Shown here piece by piece: positions 42,601 through 54,600 of a stretch of DNA of 64,000 nucleotides (its first letter is position 1; the number at the start of each line of letters is the position of its first letter). The stretch lies in NCBI RefSeq assembly GCF_963506605.1, contig NC_083288.1, positions 36,766,001 to 36,830,000 of the forward strand, read 5' to 3'. A program made the position numbers. The stretch is from Zootoca vivipara. Lineage: Eukaryota.

Positions 42601-45600
42601 TGTAGATCCAGAATTGGCCTCCACAGTCACTTACAGACCCATTGTTAAAATCGTGTTTATGGAAGACAATCTTACTCGGCTACGAGTGATTGCCAAAGAA
42701 GAAGAAGAATAGGTAGGCATGGTTTTATTTTTAGATAGCAGTCCATGCTGCATTGTGTGAGCAAAAGTTGGCAACAGCGTGCACAAAGGCAGAACAAGAT
42801 ATTTCTTGAAAGCAGACTACTGCCAAGATGTTGCCTTCAGGGATGTGCAACCATGCTGTTGTTGAAACAACAGACAAAGGAACAAAAGGCTGAGTGTGTA
42901 CGATGTGTGGCAAAATTATTGCAGACGCATATGGCATGTTTTCCTTATAAAGCTACCTTGAAGCAGAAGCAAGTTGGGGAGGAGGATACTGCAGCTAACA
43001 GAAAGGAGCCAATGTACTTTTACAAAATCTCTGGCTTCCAATCTTTTCCTGCCTCTAGGCCACACAAACCACACATTTAAAGCACTATGATATCACTTCA
43101 AACAATCATGGCTTCCCCCAAATAATTCTGGGTGCTAAAGTTTGTTAAGGGTGCGGACAGTTTTCCAGAGGCCCCTATTCCCCACAGACAACTACAATTT
43201 CCAGAGTTCCCTGTGAAGAGGAATTTACTGTTAAACCACTCTGAGAATTGTCCCCCTGCCTTTAGAGCAACTGAAAACGTCAAATGAGAAGCCATTTATT
43301 GCTGCCTTTGTCAGAAAGGGAACTGTCCTTTTCCTTTTCTCTCTCTCTCTCTCTCTACCCCAACCCAACATTATGACTGATGATGGATCATCGTTTCCTG
43401 GGCATCATATTTATATACTTAGATTCCCAGACACTCGGATTCTCATTTGAAGACTCTGCATGTTTTAAGGATGCCTGTTACTCTCCCCTTCTTGCTGCTT
43501 ACGATCTGTGAGTATAGTTTAGCTCAATGGGGTGGGAAGTATCCATTCAGCTGGCAGAATCAGAGGGGCATTGAACTCTGGGACTGCAGCAGCATCAGCA
43601 AGAGGAAGAGAAATGGCTAGGCTACCTTAAGATGTTTTTTGCCACCTGAGGAAACCAGGGTGGATGGGTAGTTAGATGAGAGCGAGGATTTGAGTTGTAT
43701 AGACACCGTGCATTTAAAGCGCATTCAAATCCCACATGCCCCAAATAATCCTGGGAACTGTAGACATGGGATCTTGAATCAGCATTCCTGGGTTTTGGCA
43801 ATCGGCCCTTCTCTCTTTTAGCCCTGCCGAAGCCCTCCATCTTCTGGCTCCAGGCTCCGGATGCAGATGAGAAGCACCACCTCCGATGTACGGCTCAAGG
43901 GGCATATTTCGGCAGCTGGTTCTACCTGTATCAGGGAGGGAGCCCAGAGGCCGTGGCTGAAAAGAAAGCCTTGCCCACCCAATCTGAAGTGACCTTTGAG
44001 GTACACAACTTTGGACCCAGGGAGCAATTCCGCTGCAGCTATGAGATCTGGGAGGCAGGGAAGCCCATTCGCTCCCCGCTCAGCAGCCCTGCAAACATCA
44101 CAGAGGGTAAGTGTTGGGCCGTAGAACTCAATGACCATACTAGGAAGGTCATGCACAGCATTAGGCCCAAAATGGTGCATGCAAGGAGGGTTGGTGTGAG
44201 AACCAATGGTACTGTGACTGGTCTAGGAATAGGACTTTATGGTTGTGAAGGACTGTCTTAGGGCAATGATGATGGCCTTTAGCAAAGATGAGGAACCTGT
44301 GACTCTCCCAACATCGTTGGATTCCATCAGTCAGGATCTTGAGCTTGATGGAGATGACCCTGTGAGGAAGGCTAATGAAGAGGTTGATTTTTTTAAAACA
44401 CTTGTTATGATTATTTAGGCTTGCTATACATCAGGAAAATTCTTGACATGTCTTGGTTTTCGCATGGAAAAATGGCATCGGGGGAATCTTGCCGAATCTG
44501 CAATGTCAGGGAAAACCCGGGTGTTTGGCAACGCGAAGGAAAAAGCAGCAGAAACAGCTCCAAAAGCTTAAAACCACTATTTTGGGGGAGGTTTTACTTA
44601 AAAAGCTCAACAACAAGGGTTTGTTCCCAAAAAGCTGAACAATTTTGGGTCTTCCTTAAAAAAAGGTCAACTTTGTGAGTGTCAGGAATATAGCAACGCT
44701 AGGATTGCTTATACTATACACTATACTATACTTAAATGATCAAGCTGCTATGAAATGTGTGCACTTTTAACATTTAGCATTTGCAAATCATTTGTACACT
44801 TTACAGTATAGATCTATTGAGTACTATGTATTTTATAACATATGATCAAGTTTCTGGTCACTATGGAAACATAAACATTTAAGCCTCTATGAAAATTTTC
44901 ACATACATTGCTAGTATTTGTACCATTTGGTATGGTCCTGCCATGCAGCAGCAGCTGGTTATATTATTGTTTGACATACAATTGCACTGGAATGTGCATT
45001 ATCTTTGTAATTAATTGATATCTTTAATGATTGATAGTTCATTTTATGATGGCTATAAATGTTGCAATGTTCCTATAATCACACAGAGTTATTTGCTGGA
45101 TTGTCATACTATATTTTGAAATGATTTAGTATTTGAGCTATTCTAAACATATACTGATTTGCATTTTTGTTGTTCGGCTGCAAGCTGCTTTGAGCACATT
45201 TATAATATAGATGTAAATAATAAACAGACAAGCACACAAAGGCAGTATGTTTGAACCCCTTCTCTTTCCAAAGGTTTGTCACTACTGTTTTTACTGTTGT
45301 AATTTTGCATACTATGTACCTTTAAAGCACATTCGAAGCACGTTCTTAACCTCCAAGAATTATGGGCACCTTAGTTTACTACTTACAGAGTTACAATTCC
45401 CAGCACCCTTAACAAACTACAGTGCCCAGACTTCTCTGAGGGTGTGTGTGCTTAAACATGCTTTAAAGGTATAGTGTGCACAGTGGTACCTTGGTTCTCA
45501 AACTTAATCAATTCCGGAAATCTGTTCCAAAACCAAAGCGTTCCAAAACCAAGGCACACTTTCCCATAGAAAGTAAAGCAAAACAGATTAATCCATTCCA

Positions 45601-51600: not shown

Positions 51601-54600
51601 AGCATCCCTTAAGTTATATCTTTTTGTTTTCACACATCTCCTTTCCAGATGCAACTGTGGTCCCCAATTACCTGGAGGTGTTGGTGGACTCTGCAGGAAG
51701 ATATCGAGTGAATTGCTCAGTCCCTTCTGCTGCTGAGGGCTGGTTTTATCTTTACCAAGGTGGGCAGCTCTTTGCTGAAACCAGAGCTTGGCAAGATGGG
51801 GAGATTGCAAGCTTCAACCTCACAGAAGAAGCCATTAACATCACCATAGGAGAGCTGAGCTGCCAATATAAGGAATATCAGCTCAATGACACTGAAGCGT
51901 GGACACAAGGTGAGTCCAGGGGGGATGGGAGAAGTGTACACTAGCAGAGAGCTAGCCTGTGCACCTTTATTTCCCTCAAAGAATTATGGGCACTGTAGTT
52001 TATCCCTCGCGGAGTTACAATTCCCAGCAAATTACAGTGCCCATAATTCTTTGAGGGAAATAAAAGTGGTTTGAATGTGCTATAAAGGTATAGTGCACAT
52101 CCTTAGGTGACGATGATAATTGTACCATTAATGGTGCTTTACAGTATAAAAGAGGATAAGTCCCTGGTCCCAAGGAGCTTCCAATCTAAAAATGGATTTG
52201 AATATAGAAGCATAGAAGATATTGTGAAGTTGAGTGGATGCCCAGAAAATGAATGACTGGCTGGAGAATCAAACACAAGCATATTCCCACAGACAATAAC
52301 TTTGATGGGTGTGGGGTGGGTGGAACGGACAACACATACTGTTCTGTTTCGGCAGAACAAGGACAAGCAGCAAAACAAGGTTTACCACTCCATTCTTTGG
52401 TGCTGCTATCCACAGCTGGCCATTGGTATGCAAGCTGATTGATAGGTCATGCAGCATGTCTCCTTTAGCGTCGCTATTTTCCCTACATGGAAAACTCTGT
52501 AGGAAAAAGCAACATACAGCTGTATGCAAATTTTCAATTGTGGCAATCACGCGGGCATGTGTGTGGTTGAAAGGCTTTCAGGGGACAAACAGTAGGAAGC
52601 CACCATTAGTTGCTGTTTTTCCATAAAGGAACACGGCACTGGAATAATTCCATGTGATGTTTCACATCTAGACGTCATCCCCCCCCCCACACTCGACAAG
52701 TGCTTTCCACGTATGTAAAGGATTGCTGTGTGATGGTTCTGGTGGTGTCATTGTCGCCACTGGAATGTTGCCCTTTTCAGATTATATTAGCACAGATGAT
52801 TCAGGCTGTGGTGATAAGCACACTTAGCTGGGAGAAGCCCCTTTGAACAGGATGGCACTGCCAGTTAATGGCTGCCAAGGAAACCAAGCACAGGCAAGTG
52901 GATTCAAGGCAGCTCCCGTAGTGCTAGTGCCCCATTCATTTGCCGCCTGCTCAGGGGCAAGTCCATCTTCATGGGGACAGTTCTCAGGCTGCGTAGTGAT
53001 TGATGAAAGAAGAAAACCTGCTGTATACCGAAAACTATTTTTACATTGATATGCGTTTTCTAATTTCTCCAGACTCACATTCCCAGGCCACGGATTTCAC
53101 TGCAGCCAACTCACTGCGACTTGGGATCGGGGCCTGCATCTTTTTATTAGCCGTGTTCTTCATAGCTGAAGCATGGTGGAGCGAGAAGCATCAGGAGAGC
53201 TGGACCAAATGAAGGGATCCTGGATCAGCAGGATCCCACTAAGCTGATCGAGTCTGGTTTGAAACCGCAAGTTCCAGCGGCTGCTTTTGATGGGAAGGAA
53301 CATAATGATTGATTGGGAGCTGCACATGGAGATAGGCAGACTGCAATCCTCAACCAATTTTCCTCACAGTCACCACATCATGGCTCCTCTAAAGCAGGAG
53401 CTTTGGCCTACAGGGGTAAGGAACATGCGGGCCACCAGATGTTGTTGGACTCCATCTCCCATTGGCCCCAACCAGTATGGCCATTGGTCAGGGATGATGG
53501 GAGTCATAGTCCTGCAAAATCTGGCAGGCCACCAGTTTTGACCAACATAATTCAGCCCTAGATCATGTCCAGTAATTATCAAGAAGAATTTGCTCCTGGG
53601 CATGCACAGAATGCCTTTGCCTCACCAGTGAGTAACCACAATCTCAGCCTTCACACAACTGATTTCCAGAGTGACATAGACACTAGTACCTCAGGCCAGT
53701 GAGAGGAGATGATTATTTTTTCAAGTGTTTTCATCATGAAGTGTATTGCTTTCAGGCATGGTCCTGTAGTTATATACAGCTTCTGTTCTTCTGCAATTTT
53801 TTGCTGTAACTCTAGATGCTTTATTCATTTTCAGTGTTGTTCAACTCATGTTTTATAATGTTATGTCATCCAGTGCTCCAGAATAGACAAAGGGCAGGAT
53901 ATAACAATAAATGATTGAATGAATATTAACAGAAGGGAGGGACAGATTGAAATGTATGTTCTTTGTTGTTCAGAACTGGTCCTTTGTCTCCTTTTGGAAT
54001 GTTAGATAAACCACATACTACTGTGTTGGCAGAATATGAATTATGTGATAATTTTTTATTGTGTTGTTAATAAGAACCATTTAGAAAAAAGGGAGCAACT
54101 CCAAAAGAGGAGAGTTCTCTGCCTGAAGGTAGGAGGTGGGGCGGGGGTCAAGAGAAGGGGCAGCTGCAGCATATTAAAAATGACTTCCATCTCAGGTAAA
54201 ATCTGTTAGCCAGGTTTGCCTTTACTGTTTGAGGGGGGTGGTATAAATTGCTAGTTAGGGCACACTGGTGGATAGGAGTACTGTAATGATTGGTTGAAAT
54301 CACGACTGTGCAAGTGAGAGGAAGGAAAAATGCCTGTTCTGTCCTTTTAGATGCAAAATAATGGTGTGTCGTGCCAACTTAGACAATTGCCTGTTGGGCA
54401 TTTGGGGGAGGAGGATGGAAGATAAGAACTAAGAAATACATGCCTTAACAGCCAGCCTTGCTGTGAAGTAGCCTGCTTTGGCACCATTGCGTGGGGAAGG
54501 GCACGACTGGTATCAAGGGTTTGTAATGGTAGGGCCGCTGCTGAGGGACCACGCTCCTGCAGGGAACCCACTGACAAAGCATCATGGAGTGGCTGTATTG

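What the first reader, a model, noticed from the sequence alone, without database searches (positions are those of the whole stretch)
43471..53212. Mosaic three-Ig activating receptor at the OSCAR position
Seen: only Ig2 is a canonical LILR/OSCAR-type domain. Ig1 and Ig3 share an exact WFYLYQGG motif and an AE.(K/R)A...(V/A).F pattern, and both lack the DAG.Y.C motif. The TM carries N-S-L-R and the tail is short with no ITIM. Established: mammalian OSCAR and TARM1 have two Ig domains and signal through FcR-gamma via a TM arginine. Inference from recalled sequence: Ig1 and Ig3 resemble the HIDE1/C19orf38-type domain (FTLYRGGQ..VTFNL..CQY). This suggests an A-B-A' receptor built by phase-1 exon shuffling, so labelling it OSCAR or TARM1 may hide a distinct squamate receptor family.
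Basis: partly seen in the sequence, partly recalled or inferred. Interest (0 to 1): 0.7.

Follow-up and report, generated by a model that had tools for sequence, protein, structure and literature searches.

The report
Three-Ig activating receptor beside NDUFA3
This is an intact reptile immune-receptor gene at the spot where mammals keep OSCAR; it has three antibody-like domains rather than two, and databases give it several conflicting names.

Summary
A five-exon, all-phase-1 gene (43471-43507, 43822-44106, 46270-46557, 51649-51909, 53073-53212, + strand) encodes a signal peptide, three Ig domains and a transmembrane exon with N-S-L-R and a roughly 10-residue tail. WFYLYQGG is exact in Ig1 and Ig3.

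Ig2 is a canonical LILR/OSCAR-type domain. Ig1 passes Pfam's HIDE1 Ig model (PF17737). Ig3 matches only that model, below its cut-off. Orthologue profiles link Ig1 and Ig3 (hhalign 96.9%) far better than either links to Ig2. However, an AU test does not exclude Ig3 grouping with Ig2-type domains.

The gene lies head-to-head with NDUFA3, after CNOT3 and PRPF31, which is the human OSCAR position.

Orthologues occur in at least 18 named squamates under five kinds of name: TARM1-like, IGSF1-like, A1BG-like, OSCAR and hypothetical. Alligator sinensis has one too, so the family is not squamate-only.

The transmembrane exon has the features of the LRC NxxR type that pairs with FcR-gamma, so the best reading is an FcR-gamma-coupled activating receptor with an unknown ligand.

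It is a new architectural variant of a known receptor kind. Exons were searched singly and never joined.

The parts
43471..43507 (+). Exon 1: start codon and short signal peptide (MPVTLPFLLLTI + 1 nt), phase-1 donor GTGAGT
   Evidence: The same N-terminus begins the public models P0002, P0004, P0010 and P0011.
43822..44106 (+). Exon 2: Ig1 (94 aa, frame 43824-44105), 'A-type', best Pfam match PF17737 (HIDE1 Ig). Holds WFYLYQGG at 43917-43940.
   Evidence: Pfam gives 30.7 bits against a cut-off of 23.2. 11 of 11 orthologous Ig1 domains match PF17737. AlphaFold2 pLDDT is 88.9 with seven strands. The best Foldseek PDB match is human OSCAR, E 7.7e-4.
46270..46557 (+). Exon 3: Ig2 (95 aa, frame 46272-46556), canonical LRC domain with DAGRYTCYY
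   Evidence: Pfam Ig_2 E 2.4e-9, plus Ig_3 and ig. PDB phmmer finds LILRA6 at 5e-32, with PIR-B, KIR3DL1, OSCAR and GPVI also hit.
51649..51909 (+). Exon 4: Ig3 (86 aa, frame 51651-51908), a short divergent domain leaning to the Ig1 type. Holds WFYLYQGG at 51741-51764 and four N-x-S/T sequons.
   Evidence: The only Pfam match is PF17737 at 19.3 bits, below its cut-off. 9 of 11 third domains scanned (window, 9 squamates, one unnamed relative) match PF17737 at E<=0.1. hhalign to the Ig1 profile gives 96.9%. AlphaFold2 pLDDT is 75.5, with six strands and no G strand inside the exon.
53073..53212 (+). Exon 5: stalk, NxxR transmembrane segment (DFT..ANSLRLG...FFIAEA), roughly 10-residue tail and stop codon
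   Evidence: The features of this TM subtype are described in PMC6557307 (passages read).
36577..36804 (-). Flank: NDUFA3 exon, head-to-head with the receptor gene
   Evidence: Pfam NADHdh_A3 E 4.1e-8.
21726..26552 (-). Flank: PRPF31 exons (Nop and Prp31_C domains)
46..2592 (-). Flank: CNOT3 exons (Not3 domain)

Best explanation
This is an intact, single-copy leukocyte-receptor-complex (LRC) gene at the NDUFA3-adjacent position that OSCAR occupies in humans. It encodes a type I membrane receptor with three Ig domains. Ig1 is an 'A-type' domain best modelled by Pfam's HIDE1 Ig family. Ig2 is a canonical LILR/OSCAR-type 'B-type' domain. Ig3 is a shortened, heavily glycosylated domain that leans towards the A type.

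After the Ig domains come a stalk, a transmembrane helix of the conserved LRC NxxR subtype and a very short tail without signalling motifs.

Inferred mechanism: the ectodomain binds a ligand that is still unknown. The transmembrane arginine pairs with the aspartate of an FcR-gamma dimer, whose ITAM then activates myeloid cells.

Shown here: the gene structure, the domain types, conservation across squamates and in an alligator, the synteny and the TM motif set. Inferred: FcR-gamma pairing, the cell type, any ligand, and descent of Ig3 from an Ig1-like exon.
For: Structure: splice sites and phases are intact. The same join is seen in the public protein P0001, which is 97-98% identical per exon.

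Conservation: 11 squamate models plus Alligator sinensis P0023 hold all three Ig domains and the TM.

Domain types:
- hhalign of orthologue profiles: Ig1-Ig3 96.9%, E 1.8e-10; Ig1-Ig2 62.4%; Ig2-Ig3 41.2%.
- Cross-HMM hits of at least 8 bits: the Ig3 model hits 14 of 15 squamate Ig1 domains. The Ig1 model hits 16 of 17 Ig3 domains. The Ig2 model hits 0 of 15 Ig1 and 7 of 17 Ig3 domains.
- Unnamed single-domain proteins that carry only PF17737 score 42.7 bits with the Ig1 model, 14.5 with the Ig3 model and under 8 with the Ig2 model.
- The ML tree puts Ig3 on the A-type side of a split with SH-aLRT 97.

TM exon: N-x-x-R is present, with DFT (DYT in Rhineura and alligator) before it and an acidic residue near its end. 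These are the features listed for the FcR-gamma-associating LRC TM in PMC6557307. Arginine is kept in 14 of 15 TM-bearing squamate models. No ITIM-like motif was found in any of 26 C-termini.

Synteny: CNOT3, PRPF31 and NDUFA3 lie on the minus strand upstream. The human order is VSTM1-TARM1-OSCAR-NDUFA3-TFPT-PRPF31 (PMC9695658 passages).
Against: - Ig3's PF17737 score (19.3 bits) is below the cut-off and equals the cross-hit of canonical Ig2. In two orthologues the best PF17737 stretch lies in Ig2.
- Ig3 also matches B-type profiles at 96.3% probability.
- The AU test does not reject Ig3 plus B-type as one clade (p 0.331). I named that group after seeing the tree.
- The comparison set was gathered with Ig1 as the query, so it is enriched in A-type domains.
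- Language-model neighbours of Ig1 are IGSF1-like, A1BG and KIR-like clusters. None is named HIDE1.
- The Anolis model has Q in place of the TM arginine, and the Lerista model has S in place of the asparagine.
- No expression data, no FcR-gamma test and no ligand test were possible.
- The public models are predictions. I could not see their transcript support.
Confidence: 0.65

Rival explanations
1. It is simply the reptile orthologue of OSCAR, a collagen-binding FcR-gamma receptor. It either kept or gained one extra Ig exon, so the label OSCAR would be essentially right.
For: It sits in the same position next to NDUFA3 in the same head-to-head orientation. It has an NxxR TM. PMC6557307 treats OSCAR as the one LRC member kept in all three mammalian lineages (abstract). 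The best Foldseek PDB matches of the Ig1 model are OSCAR entries, with TM-score 0.72-0.78 and E from 7.7e-4. Ig2 hits OSCAR at 2.9e-18.
Against: There are three Ig domains, not two. The Ig1 profile reaches OSCAR only at E 0.17, and it matches OSCAR's second domain, whereas Ig2's best stretch is OSCAR's first domain, so the domain order is not collinear. CHIR-AB1 and NKp46 score better than OSCAR for Ig1. OSCAR is not among the best 60 PDB hits of the Ig3 profile. Only 1 of 21 squamate entries is named OSCAR, and that model lacks Ig1.
Confidence: 0.25
2. Ig3 is not an Ig1-type (HIDE1-like) domain. It is a degenerate canonical LRC domain, and the shared WFYLYQGG stretch comes from convergence on a common C-strand motif. 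The layout would then be A-B-B', not A-B-A'.
For: Ig3 matches B-type profiles at 96.3%, E 1.7e-9. AU test p is 0.331. The Ig2 model hits 7 of 17 Ig3 domains. An unnamed relative, P0037, with near-identical signal, Ig1 and Ig2, carries a canonical third domain. The exact 8-mer is not universal: geckos have WFSLYQGG or LFSLYQGG in Ig1 and WFYLYQDG in Ig3.
Against: Every paired measure favours Ig1. BLASTP gives 27.3 against 21.6 bits. hhalign gives 56.7 against 26.1. The outside A-type profile scores 64.6 against 49.3 for B-type. Cross-HMM hits are 16 of 17 against 7 of 17. Pfam gives PF17737 in 9 of 11 against Ig_2 in 2 of 11. The third domains of the distant relatives P0034 and P0045 score equally with the Ig1 and Ig3 models.
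Confidence: 0.25
3. It is the reptile orthologue of TARM1, as NCBI names it in six squamate entries.
For: Six squamate entries are named TARM1 or TARM1-like. TARM1 has an NxxR TM, signals through FcR-gamma and lies next to OSCAR in humans (PMC6557307 and PMC9695658 passages).
Against: TARM1 has two Ig domains, and PMC6557307 reports its d1 subtype as specific to eutherians. The same gene is named IGSF1-like in six other squamate entries, and A1BG-like and OSCAR in one each. That paper also warns that such automatic names are misleading. No TARM1 sequence was available here for a direct test.
Confidence: 0.07
4. It is a gene-model artefact or a pseudogene: the three Ig exons do not form one functional transcript.
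For: No transcript data were available. Some public models omit Ig1 (P0014, P0017) or run into an intron after Ig2 (P0019, P0020).
Against: All exons are open with consensus splice sites and matching phases. All three domains are conserved at 58-98% identity across squamates, with both cysteines kept. 12 independent models join all parts.
Confidence: 0.03

Closest known systems
OSCAR (osteoclast-associated Ig-like receptor), mammalian LRC group B
   Same: It sits next to NDUFA3 in the CNOT3-PRPF31-TFPT-NDUFA3 block. It has an NxxR transmembrane exon, a short tail and LRC-type Ig domains. OSCAR is the best structural match for Ig1 among solved structures.
   Different: It has three Ig domains instead of two. 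Ig1 and Ig3 show little or no sequence match to OSCAR: E 0.17 for the Ig1 profile, and OSCAR is not among the best 60 hits for the Ig3 profile. Collagen binding is untested.
TARM1 / VSTM1 pair, mammalian LRC group B
   Same: It is an FcR-gamma-type activating receptor of the same cluster with an NxxR TM. This is also the commonest automatic name among full-length squamate models.
   Different: TARM1 has two Ig domains, and its d1 subtype is reported as specific to eutherians.
HIDE1 (C19orf38), Pfam PF17737 Ig_C19orf38
   Same: Ig1 passes the family's curated cut-off. Ig3's only Pfam match is this family.
   Different: HIDE1 is a single-Ig protein whose gene lies outside the LRC (both points recalled, not tested). 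This gene has three Ig domains, a canonical LRC domain in the middle and an NxxR TM. PF17737 also cross-hits canonical Ig2 at 19.3 bits.
CHIR-AB1 and other chicken CHIR receptors; Xenopus NxxR LRC receptors
   Same: These are non-mammalian LRC receptors with NxxR TMs (PMC6557307 passages). CHIR-AB1 is the best single-domain PDB sequence match of the Ig1 profile, at 25.7 bits, E 1.1e-4.
   Different: CHIR genes form a large expanded cluster elsewhere, on chicken microchromosome 31 according to the paper. This is a single conserved gene at the OSCAR position with a fixed three-domain layout.

Membership tests
LRC activating receptors with the NxxR transmembrane subtype (FcR-gamma-associating) | Arginine inside the TM within an N-x-x-R motif | tested here: met
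   The window has ANSLRLG. R is kept in 14 of 15 TM-bearing squamate models and in the alligator; Anolis has Q. N is kept in 14 of 15; Lerista has S.
LRC activating receptors with the NxxR transmembrane subtype (FcR-gamma-associating) | DYT-like motif before the TM and an acidic residue at its C-terminal end (features listed in PMC6557307) | tested here: met
   The window has DFT, and Rhineura and alligator have DYT. FIAEA or FVADA occurs at the end of the helix in most models.
LRC activating receptors with the NxxR transmembrane subtype (FcR-gamma-associating) | LRC-type C2 Ig domain(s) encoded by phase-1 exons, and a short tail without ITIM | tested here: met
   Ig2 matches Ig_2 and LILR, KIR, OSCAR and GPVI chains. 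All junctions are phase 1. No ITIM-like motif occurs in any of 26 C-termini.
LRC activating receptors with the NxxR transmembrane subtype (FcR-gamma-associating) | Physical and functional association with FcR-gamma | not testable with these tools
   This needs co-expression and co-immunoprecipitation. No FcR-gamma sequence of this species was at hand.
OSCAR orthologue | Position next to NDUFA3, on the side away from TFPT and PRPF31 | tested here: met
   TFPT itself was seen only weakly (INO80F model, 16.9 bits, below its cut-off).
OSCAR orthologue | Two-Ig ectodomain (d1, d2) | tested here: not met
   The window has three Ig exons, and so do 12 public models.
OSCAR orthologue | Domains cluster with OSCAR d1 and d2 in a domain tree | tested here: inconclusive
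   Only PDB comparisons were possible. Ig2 hits OSCAR at 2.9e-18 but LILRs score higher. The Ig1 profile reaches OSCAR d2 at E 0.17. No tree with OSCAR exons could be built.
TARM1 orthologue | Two-Ig ectodomain whose d1 is shared with VSTM1 | not tested
The three-Ig layout differs from the two domains described in PMC6557307.
Pfam PF17737 (Ig domain of HIDE1/C19orf38) | Score at or above the curated gathering cut-off (23.2 bits) | tested here: met
   Ig1 scores 30.7 bits. All 11 Ig1 domains match at E<=0.1, the best at 2.4e-11.
Pfam PF17737 (Ig domain of HIDE1/C19orf38) | The same cut-off applied to Ig3 | tested here: inconclusive
   The window's Ig3 scores 19.3 bits, below the cut-off, covering profile positions 15-70 of 91. 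9 of 11 third domains match at E<=0.1, the best at 2.3e-5. Canonical Ig2 also scores 19.3 bits.
HIDE1 orthologue | Single-Ig type I protein | tested here: not met
   This gene has three Ig domains and an NxxR TM.

The most novel reading that the evidence does not exclude
The three-Ig A-B-A' NxxR receptor beside NDUFA3 may be close to the ancestral amniote, or even tetrapod, occupant of the OSCAR position. Mammalian OSCAR and TARM1/VSTM1 would then be reshuffled two-domain remnants. The single Ig domain of HIDE1 would be an A-type LRC exon that escaped the cluster. That would tie HIDE1 to the LRC and give 'group B' a concrete ancestor-like form.
Probability: 0.2. Interest if true: 0.6.

Novelty: new variant of a known kind. 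Interest (0 to 1): 0.42.

Why it matters
LRC receptors evolve by exon shuffling so quickly that orthology outside mammals is largely unresolved, and automatic names mislead (PMC6557307 says so). This is a rare LRC gene that has stayed single-copy at a fixed syntenic position. It has kept one domain layout across squamates and in an alligator, while five kinds of name hide that it is one gene.

It offers an anchor for comparing mammalian group B receptors (OSCAR, TARM1, VSTM1, IGSF1, A1BG) and HIDE1 with sauropsid receptors. It is also a tractable candidate FcR-gamma-coupled myeloid receptor for reptile immunology. The receptor kind itself is ordinary.

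Tried and rejected
- Single-sequence PDB searches with Ig1 and Ig3 gave only chance hits: a Fab light chain at E 0.041 and HIV gp120 at 0.47.
- The Ig3 profile against PDB gave a local match to IgG CH3 (GSFFLYSKLTVDKSRWQQG..., E 0.0029 for a chain holding two copies, at least 0.06 otherwise). I judged it chance, because it aligns Ig3's C-strand region with CH3's E-F strands.
- ESM Atlas look-alikes were generic Ig clusters for Ig3. For Ig1 they were IGSF1-like, A1BG and KIR-like clusters, with none named HIDE1.
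- Foldseek against PDB with the Ig3 model found nothing at E<=0.001. The best hits were CD147 D1, CHIR-AB1, OSCAR and NKp46, with TM-score about 0.6.
- The literature searches found no paper on a reptile LRC receptor at this locus. I saw only listings and the starts of abstracts. The HIDE1 searches mostly matched unrelated words.
- Complex prediction was not used, because no FcR-gamma sequence of this species was available.
- Recent gene conversion between the Ig1 and Ig3 exons was considered and rejected, because the synonymous positions of the shared motif differ.

Full report
SCOPE. I never joined the exons and never searched or folded a joined product. Whole-protein comparisons used public proteins that the searches returned. 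The window has no N, and I do not take it for human: the closest named protein is from the wall lizard Podarcis muralis, at 97-98% identity per exon.

1. THE OBSERVATION. Five plus-strand exons have consensus AG/GT boundaries and all junctions in phase 1:
- 43471-43507: signal peptide, MPVTLPFLLLTI.
- 43822-44106: Ig1, 94 aa.
- 46270-46557: Ig2, 95 aa.
- 51649-51909: Ig3, 86 aa.
- 53073-53212: stalk, TM, tail and stop.

WFYLYQGG is exact in Ig1 (43917-43940) and Ig3 (51741-51764). AEKKA and AETRA follow at matching distance, and V.F and A.F come six residues later. DAGRYTCYY occurs only in Ig2. The TM reads DFTAANSLRLGIGAC...FFIAEAWW and the tail is SEKHQESWTK.

Of the seven codons of the shared motif that could differ synonymously, six do. 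Recent gene conversion is therefore not the cause.

Pairwise BLASTP gives Ig1-Ig3 27.3 bits (E 5e-6), Ig1-Ig2 18.1 bits and Ig2-Ig3 21.6 bits. In six-frame searches of the whole window, each of Ig1 and Ig3 is the other's best non-self hit. No further Ig or TM exon exists in the window.

2. THE SETTING. Pfam on open frames finds CNOT3 (46-2592), PRPF31 (about 21.7-26.5 kb) and NDUFA3 (36577-36804), all on the minus strand. A weak sub-threshold INO80F/TFPT signal lies on the plus strand at 31306-31851.

A paper on a human 19q13.42 deletion gives the human order VSTM1-TARM1-OSCAR-NDUFA3-TFPT-PRPF31 (PMC9695658, passages read). 'At the OSCAR position' is therefore correct. Nothing LRC-like lies in the 10.8 kb downstream.

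3. DOMAIN TYPES. Pfam results for the window's exons:
- Ig2: Ig_2 at 2.4e-9, plus Ig_3 and ig.
- Ig1: only PF17737, the Ig domain of HIDE1/C19orf38, at 30.7 bits against a cut-off of 23.2.
- Ig3: only PF17737, at 19.3 bits, below the cut-off and covering profile positions 15-70 of 91.
- Canonical Ig2 also scores 19.3 bits on PF17737, so that model is not sharply specific.

Across relatives, 11 of 11 Ig1 domains match PF17737 and 1 of 11 matches Ig_2. For third domains, 9 of 11 match PF17737 and 2 of 11 match Ig_2. Each scanned set held the window, nine squamates or the alligator, and one unnamed distant relative.

In 20 whole orthologues scanned, PF17737 was reported in 19. Its best stretch lay in Ig1 in 14, in Ig3 in 3 (models that lack a full Ig1) and in Ig2 in 2.

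PDB by sequence:
- Ig2 finds LILRA6, LILRB, PIR-B, KIR3DL1, OSCAR and GPVI.
- The Ig1 profile finds PIR-B (summed score), CHIR-AB1 (E 1.1e-4), NKp46 D1 (0.005) and OSCAR D2 (0.17).
- The Ig3 profile finds nothing credible.

AlphaFold2 on each exon, using orthologues as the alignment:
- Ig1: pLDDT 88.9, with seven strands.
- Ig3: pLDDT 75.5, with six strands, a short helix and no G strand within the exon.

Foldseek against PDB:
- Ig1's best matches are human OSCAR entries, with E from 7.7e-4 and TM-score 0.72-0.78, followed by LILRA5 and CHIR-AB1.
- Ig3 has no match at E<=0.001. CD147 D1, CHIR-AB1, OSCAR and NKp46 have TM-scores near 0.6.

4. IS THE LAYOUT A-B-A'? Local profiles of the orthologous domains give the following hhalign results:
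- Ig1-Ig3: 96.9%, E 1.8e-10, score 56.7.
- Ig1-Ig2: 62.4%, score 29.4.
- Ig2-Ig3: 41.2%, score 26.1.

Cross-HMM hits of at least 8 bits:
- The Ig3 model hits 14 of 15 squamate Ig1 domains.
- The Ig1 model hits 16 of 17 Ig3 domains.
- The Ig2 model hits 0 of 15 Ig1 and 7 of 17 Ig3 domains.

I also compared against domain sets taken from outside the family: 118 Ig1-leaning domains from 42 proteins and 25 Ig2-leaning domains from 17 proteins. Ig3 scores 64.6 (E 7.4e-13) against the first set and 49.3 (1.7e-9) against the second.

A quick ML tree of 68 domains splits 17 Ig2-type rows from 51 others with SH-aLRT 97. The Ig3 clade falls on the Ig1-type side.

Results against this reading:
- The AU test does not reject a tree that joins Ig3 with the Ig2-type rows (p 0.331, log-likelihood difference 5.7). 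That group was named after the tree was seen.
- The outside set was collected with Ig1 as the query.

My reading is that all three are LRC-type Ig domains. Ig1 and Ig2 belong to two clear subtypes. Ig3 is a shortened, fast-diverged domain that leans to the Ig1 subtype on every paired measure, but this is not proven by a tree.

5. DISTRIBUTION. Exon-wise searches of 5.8 billion proteins gave these results:
- Ig1: 12 hits among 74 candidates.
- Ig3: 14 hits among 84 candidates.
- Ig2: 19 hits among 83 candidates.

That makes 24 distinct proteins. 21 entries come from at least 18 named squamate species: lacertid, amphisbaenian, anguid, iguanians, varanid, skink, cordylid, geckos and snakes. One comes from Alligator sinensis, and two are unnamed.

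The names they carry are:
- TARM1 or TARM1-like: 6.
- IGSF1 or IGSF1-like: 6 squamates plus the alligator.
- A1BG-like: 1.
- OSCAR: 1.
- Hypothetical, uncharacterised or Ig-like: 7. One of these is called 'C19orf38 Ig domain-containing' by UniRef.

Eleven squamate models and the alligator protein hold Ig1, Ig2, Ig3 and the TM. Others are truncated models, and two start at Ig2. The family is therefore conserved but not squamate-only.

A phmmer scan of 1.84 billion representatives with Ig1 gave 50 hits at E<=0.001. Of these, 45 carry PF17737, and 15 are large SRCR-plus-Ig mosaics. Particular hits:
- Two unnamed proteins (P0034, P0045) repeat the three-domain-plus-NxxR layout at about 34% identity.
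- P0037 has a near-identical signal, Ig1 and Ig2 but a canonical third domain.
- Single-domain proteins carrying only PF17737 (P0069, P0070) score 42.7, 14.5 and under 8 bits with the Ig1, Ig3 and Ig2 models.

6. MECHANISM. Guselnikov and Taranin 2019 (PMC6557307; abstract and passages read) describe the LRC TM subtype that associates with FcR-gamma. Its features are an arginine in an NxxR motif, a DYT-like motif before the helix and unusual acidic residues at its end. They list OSCAR and TARM1 among its users.

The window's exon 5 has all of these: DFT, NSLR and AEA. Arginine is kept in 14 of 15 TM-bearing squamate models and in the alligator. Anolis has Q and Lerista has S for the asparagine. 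No ITIM-like motif occurs in any of 26 C-termini.

I therefore infer an FcR-gamma-coupled activating receptor. The pairing, the cell type and the ligand are all untested.

Ig3 carries four N-glycosylation sequons in 86 residues, against one in Ig1 and two in Ig2 (read). That fits a membrane-proximal spacer role, but this is speculation.

7. COMPARISON AND NOVELTY.
- It works like OSCAR and TARM1, but it fails OSCAR's two-domain definition, and its domains are not collinear with OSCAR's.
- It is not a HIDE1 orthologue, because it has three domains and an NxxR TM.
- The gene and its Pfam content are already in public databases.
- What I did not find in print (searches; listings only) is its recognition as one conserved three-Ig family at the OSCAR position.
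- Supplementary files of PMC6557307, which I could not open, may hold domain sets that bear on this.

VERDICT. This is a new architectural variant of a known receptor kind, of moderate interest.

Noticed in passing
window 53166-53312 (+), just 3' of the stop at 53210-53212: Another reading frame here reads ...AGPNEGILDQQDPTKLIESGL.... This matches the long cytoplasmic tails of gecko orthologues (...EPSEGILDQQDPSGLMEA...CKTSCPxxCV in P0010, P0013, P0014). Tail length therefore differs between geckos (about 40 aa) and other squamates (about 8-12 aa) through a change of frame or stop.
   Followed up: partly
P0016 (Anolis carolinensis) and P0009 (Lerista edwardsae), TM region: The Anolis model has Q where every other model has the TM arginine (ANSLQLG). 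The Lerista model has S in place of the motif's asparagine. This could be real loss of FcR-gamma pairing or a sequence error.
   Followed up: no
P0025, P0027, P0029-P0032, P0038-P0041, P0046, P0057, P0059, P0065, P0066 (representatives library): 15 of the 50 proteins hit by Ig1 are large mosaics, up to 3218 aa, that combine SRCR domains with many Ig domains, including PF17737-type ones. They are unnamed and their taxon is unknown. They could be true SRCR-Ig receptors or fused gene models.
   Followed up: no
P0037 (unnamed, 337 aa): Its signal peptide, Ig1 and Ig2 are close to the family's, and it has an NxxR TM (NIIRLA). Its third domain is a canonical Ig2-type domain, giving A-B-B. This points to exon-level turnover at the third position in some lineage.
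   Followed up: partly
window 43423-43470, upstream of the ATG at 43471: The Podarcis muralis model P0001 starts 16 codons further upstream (MSRHSDSYLRTLHVLR...). The window reads IPRHSDSHLKTLHVLR in the same frame with no ATG there, so the shorter start used by most other models applies.
   Followed up: yes
window 42397-42648 (+): An open frame here ends in ...PHCGRTCRSRIGLHSHLQTHC, a zinc-finger-like tail. From memory I associate this with retrotransposon-derived repeats of reptile genomes. It lies between NDUFA3 and the receptor gene.
   Followed up: no
window 48000-50000 (intron 3): There is a purine-rich, low-complexity stretch with GC skew +0.21. Its frames read as K/E/G-rich or P/S-rich runs. 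It is probably repeat DNA inside the 5.1-kb intron between Ig2 and Ig3.
   Followed up: no
window 31306-31851 (+): The only sign of TFPT between PRPF31 and NDUFA3 is a weak INO80F (PF24245) match of 16.9 bits, below the cut-off of 25.1. The gene is probably there, but it was not properly delineated.
   Followed up: partly
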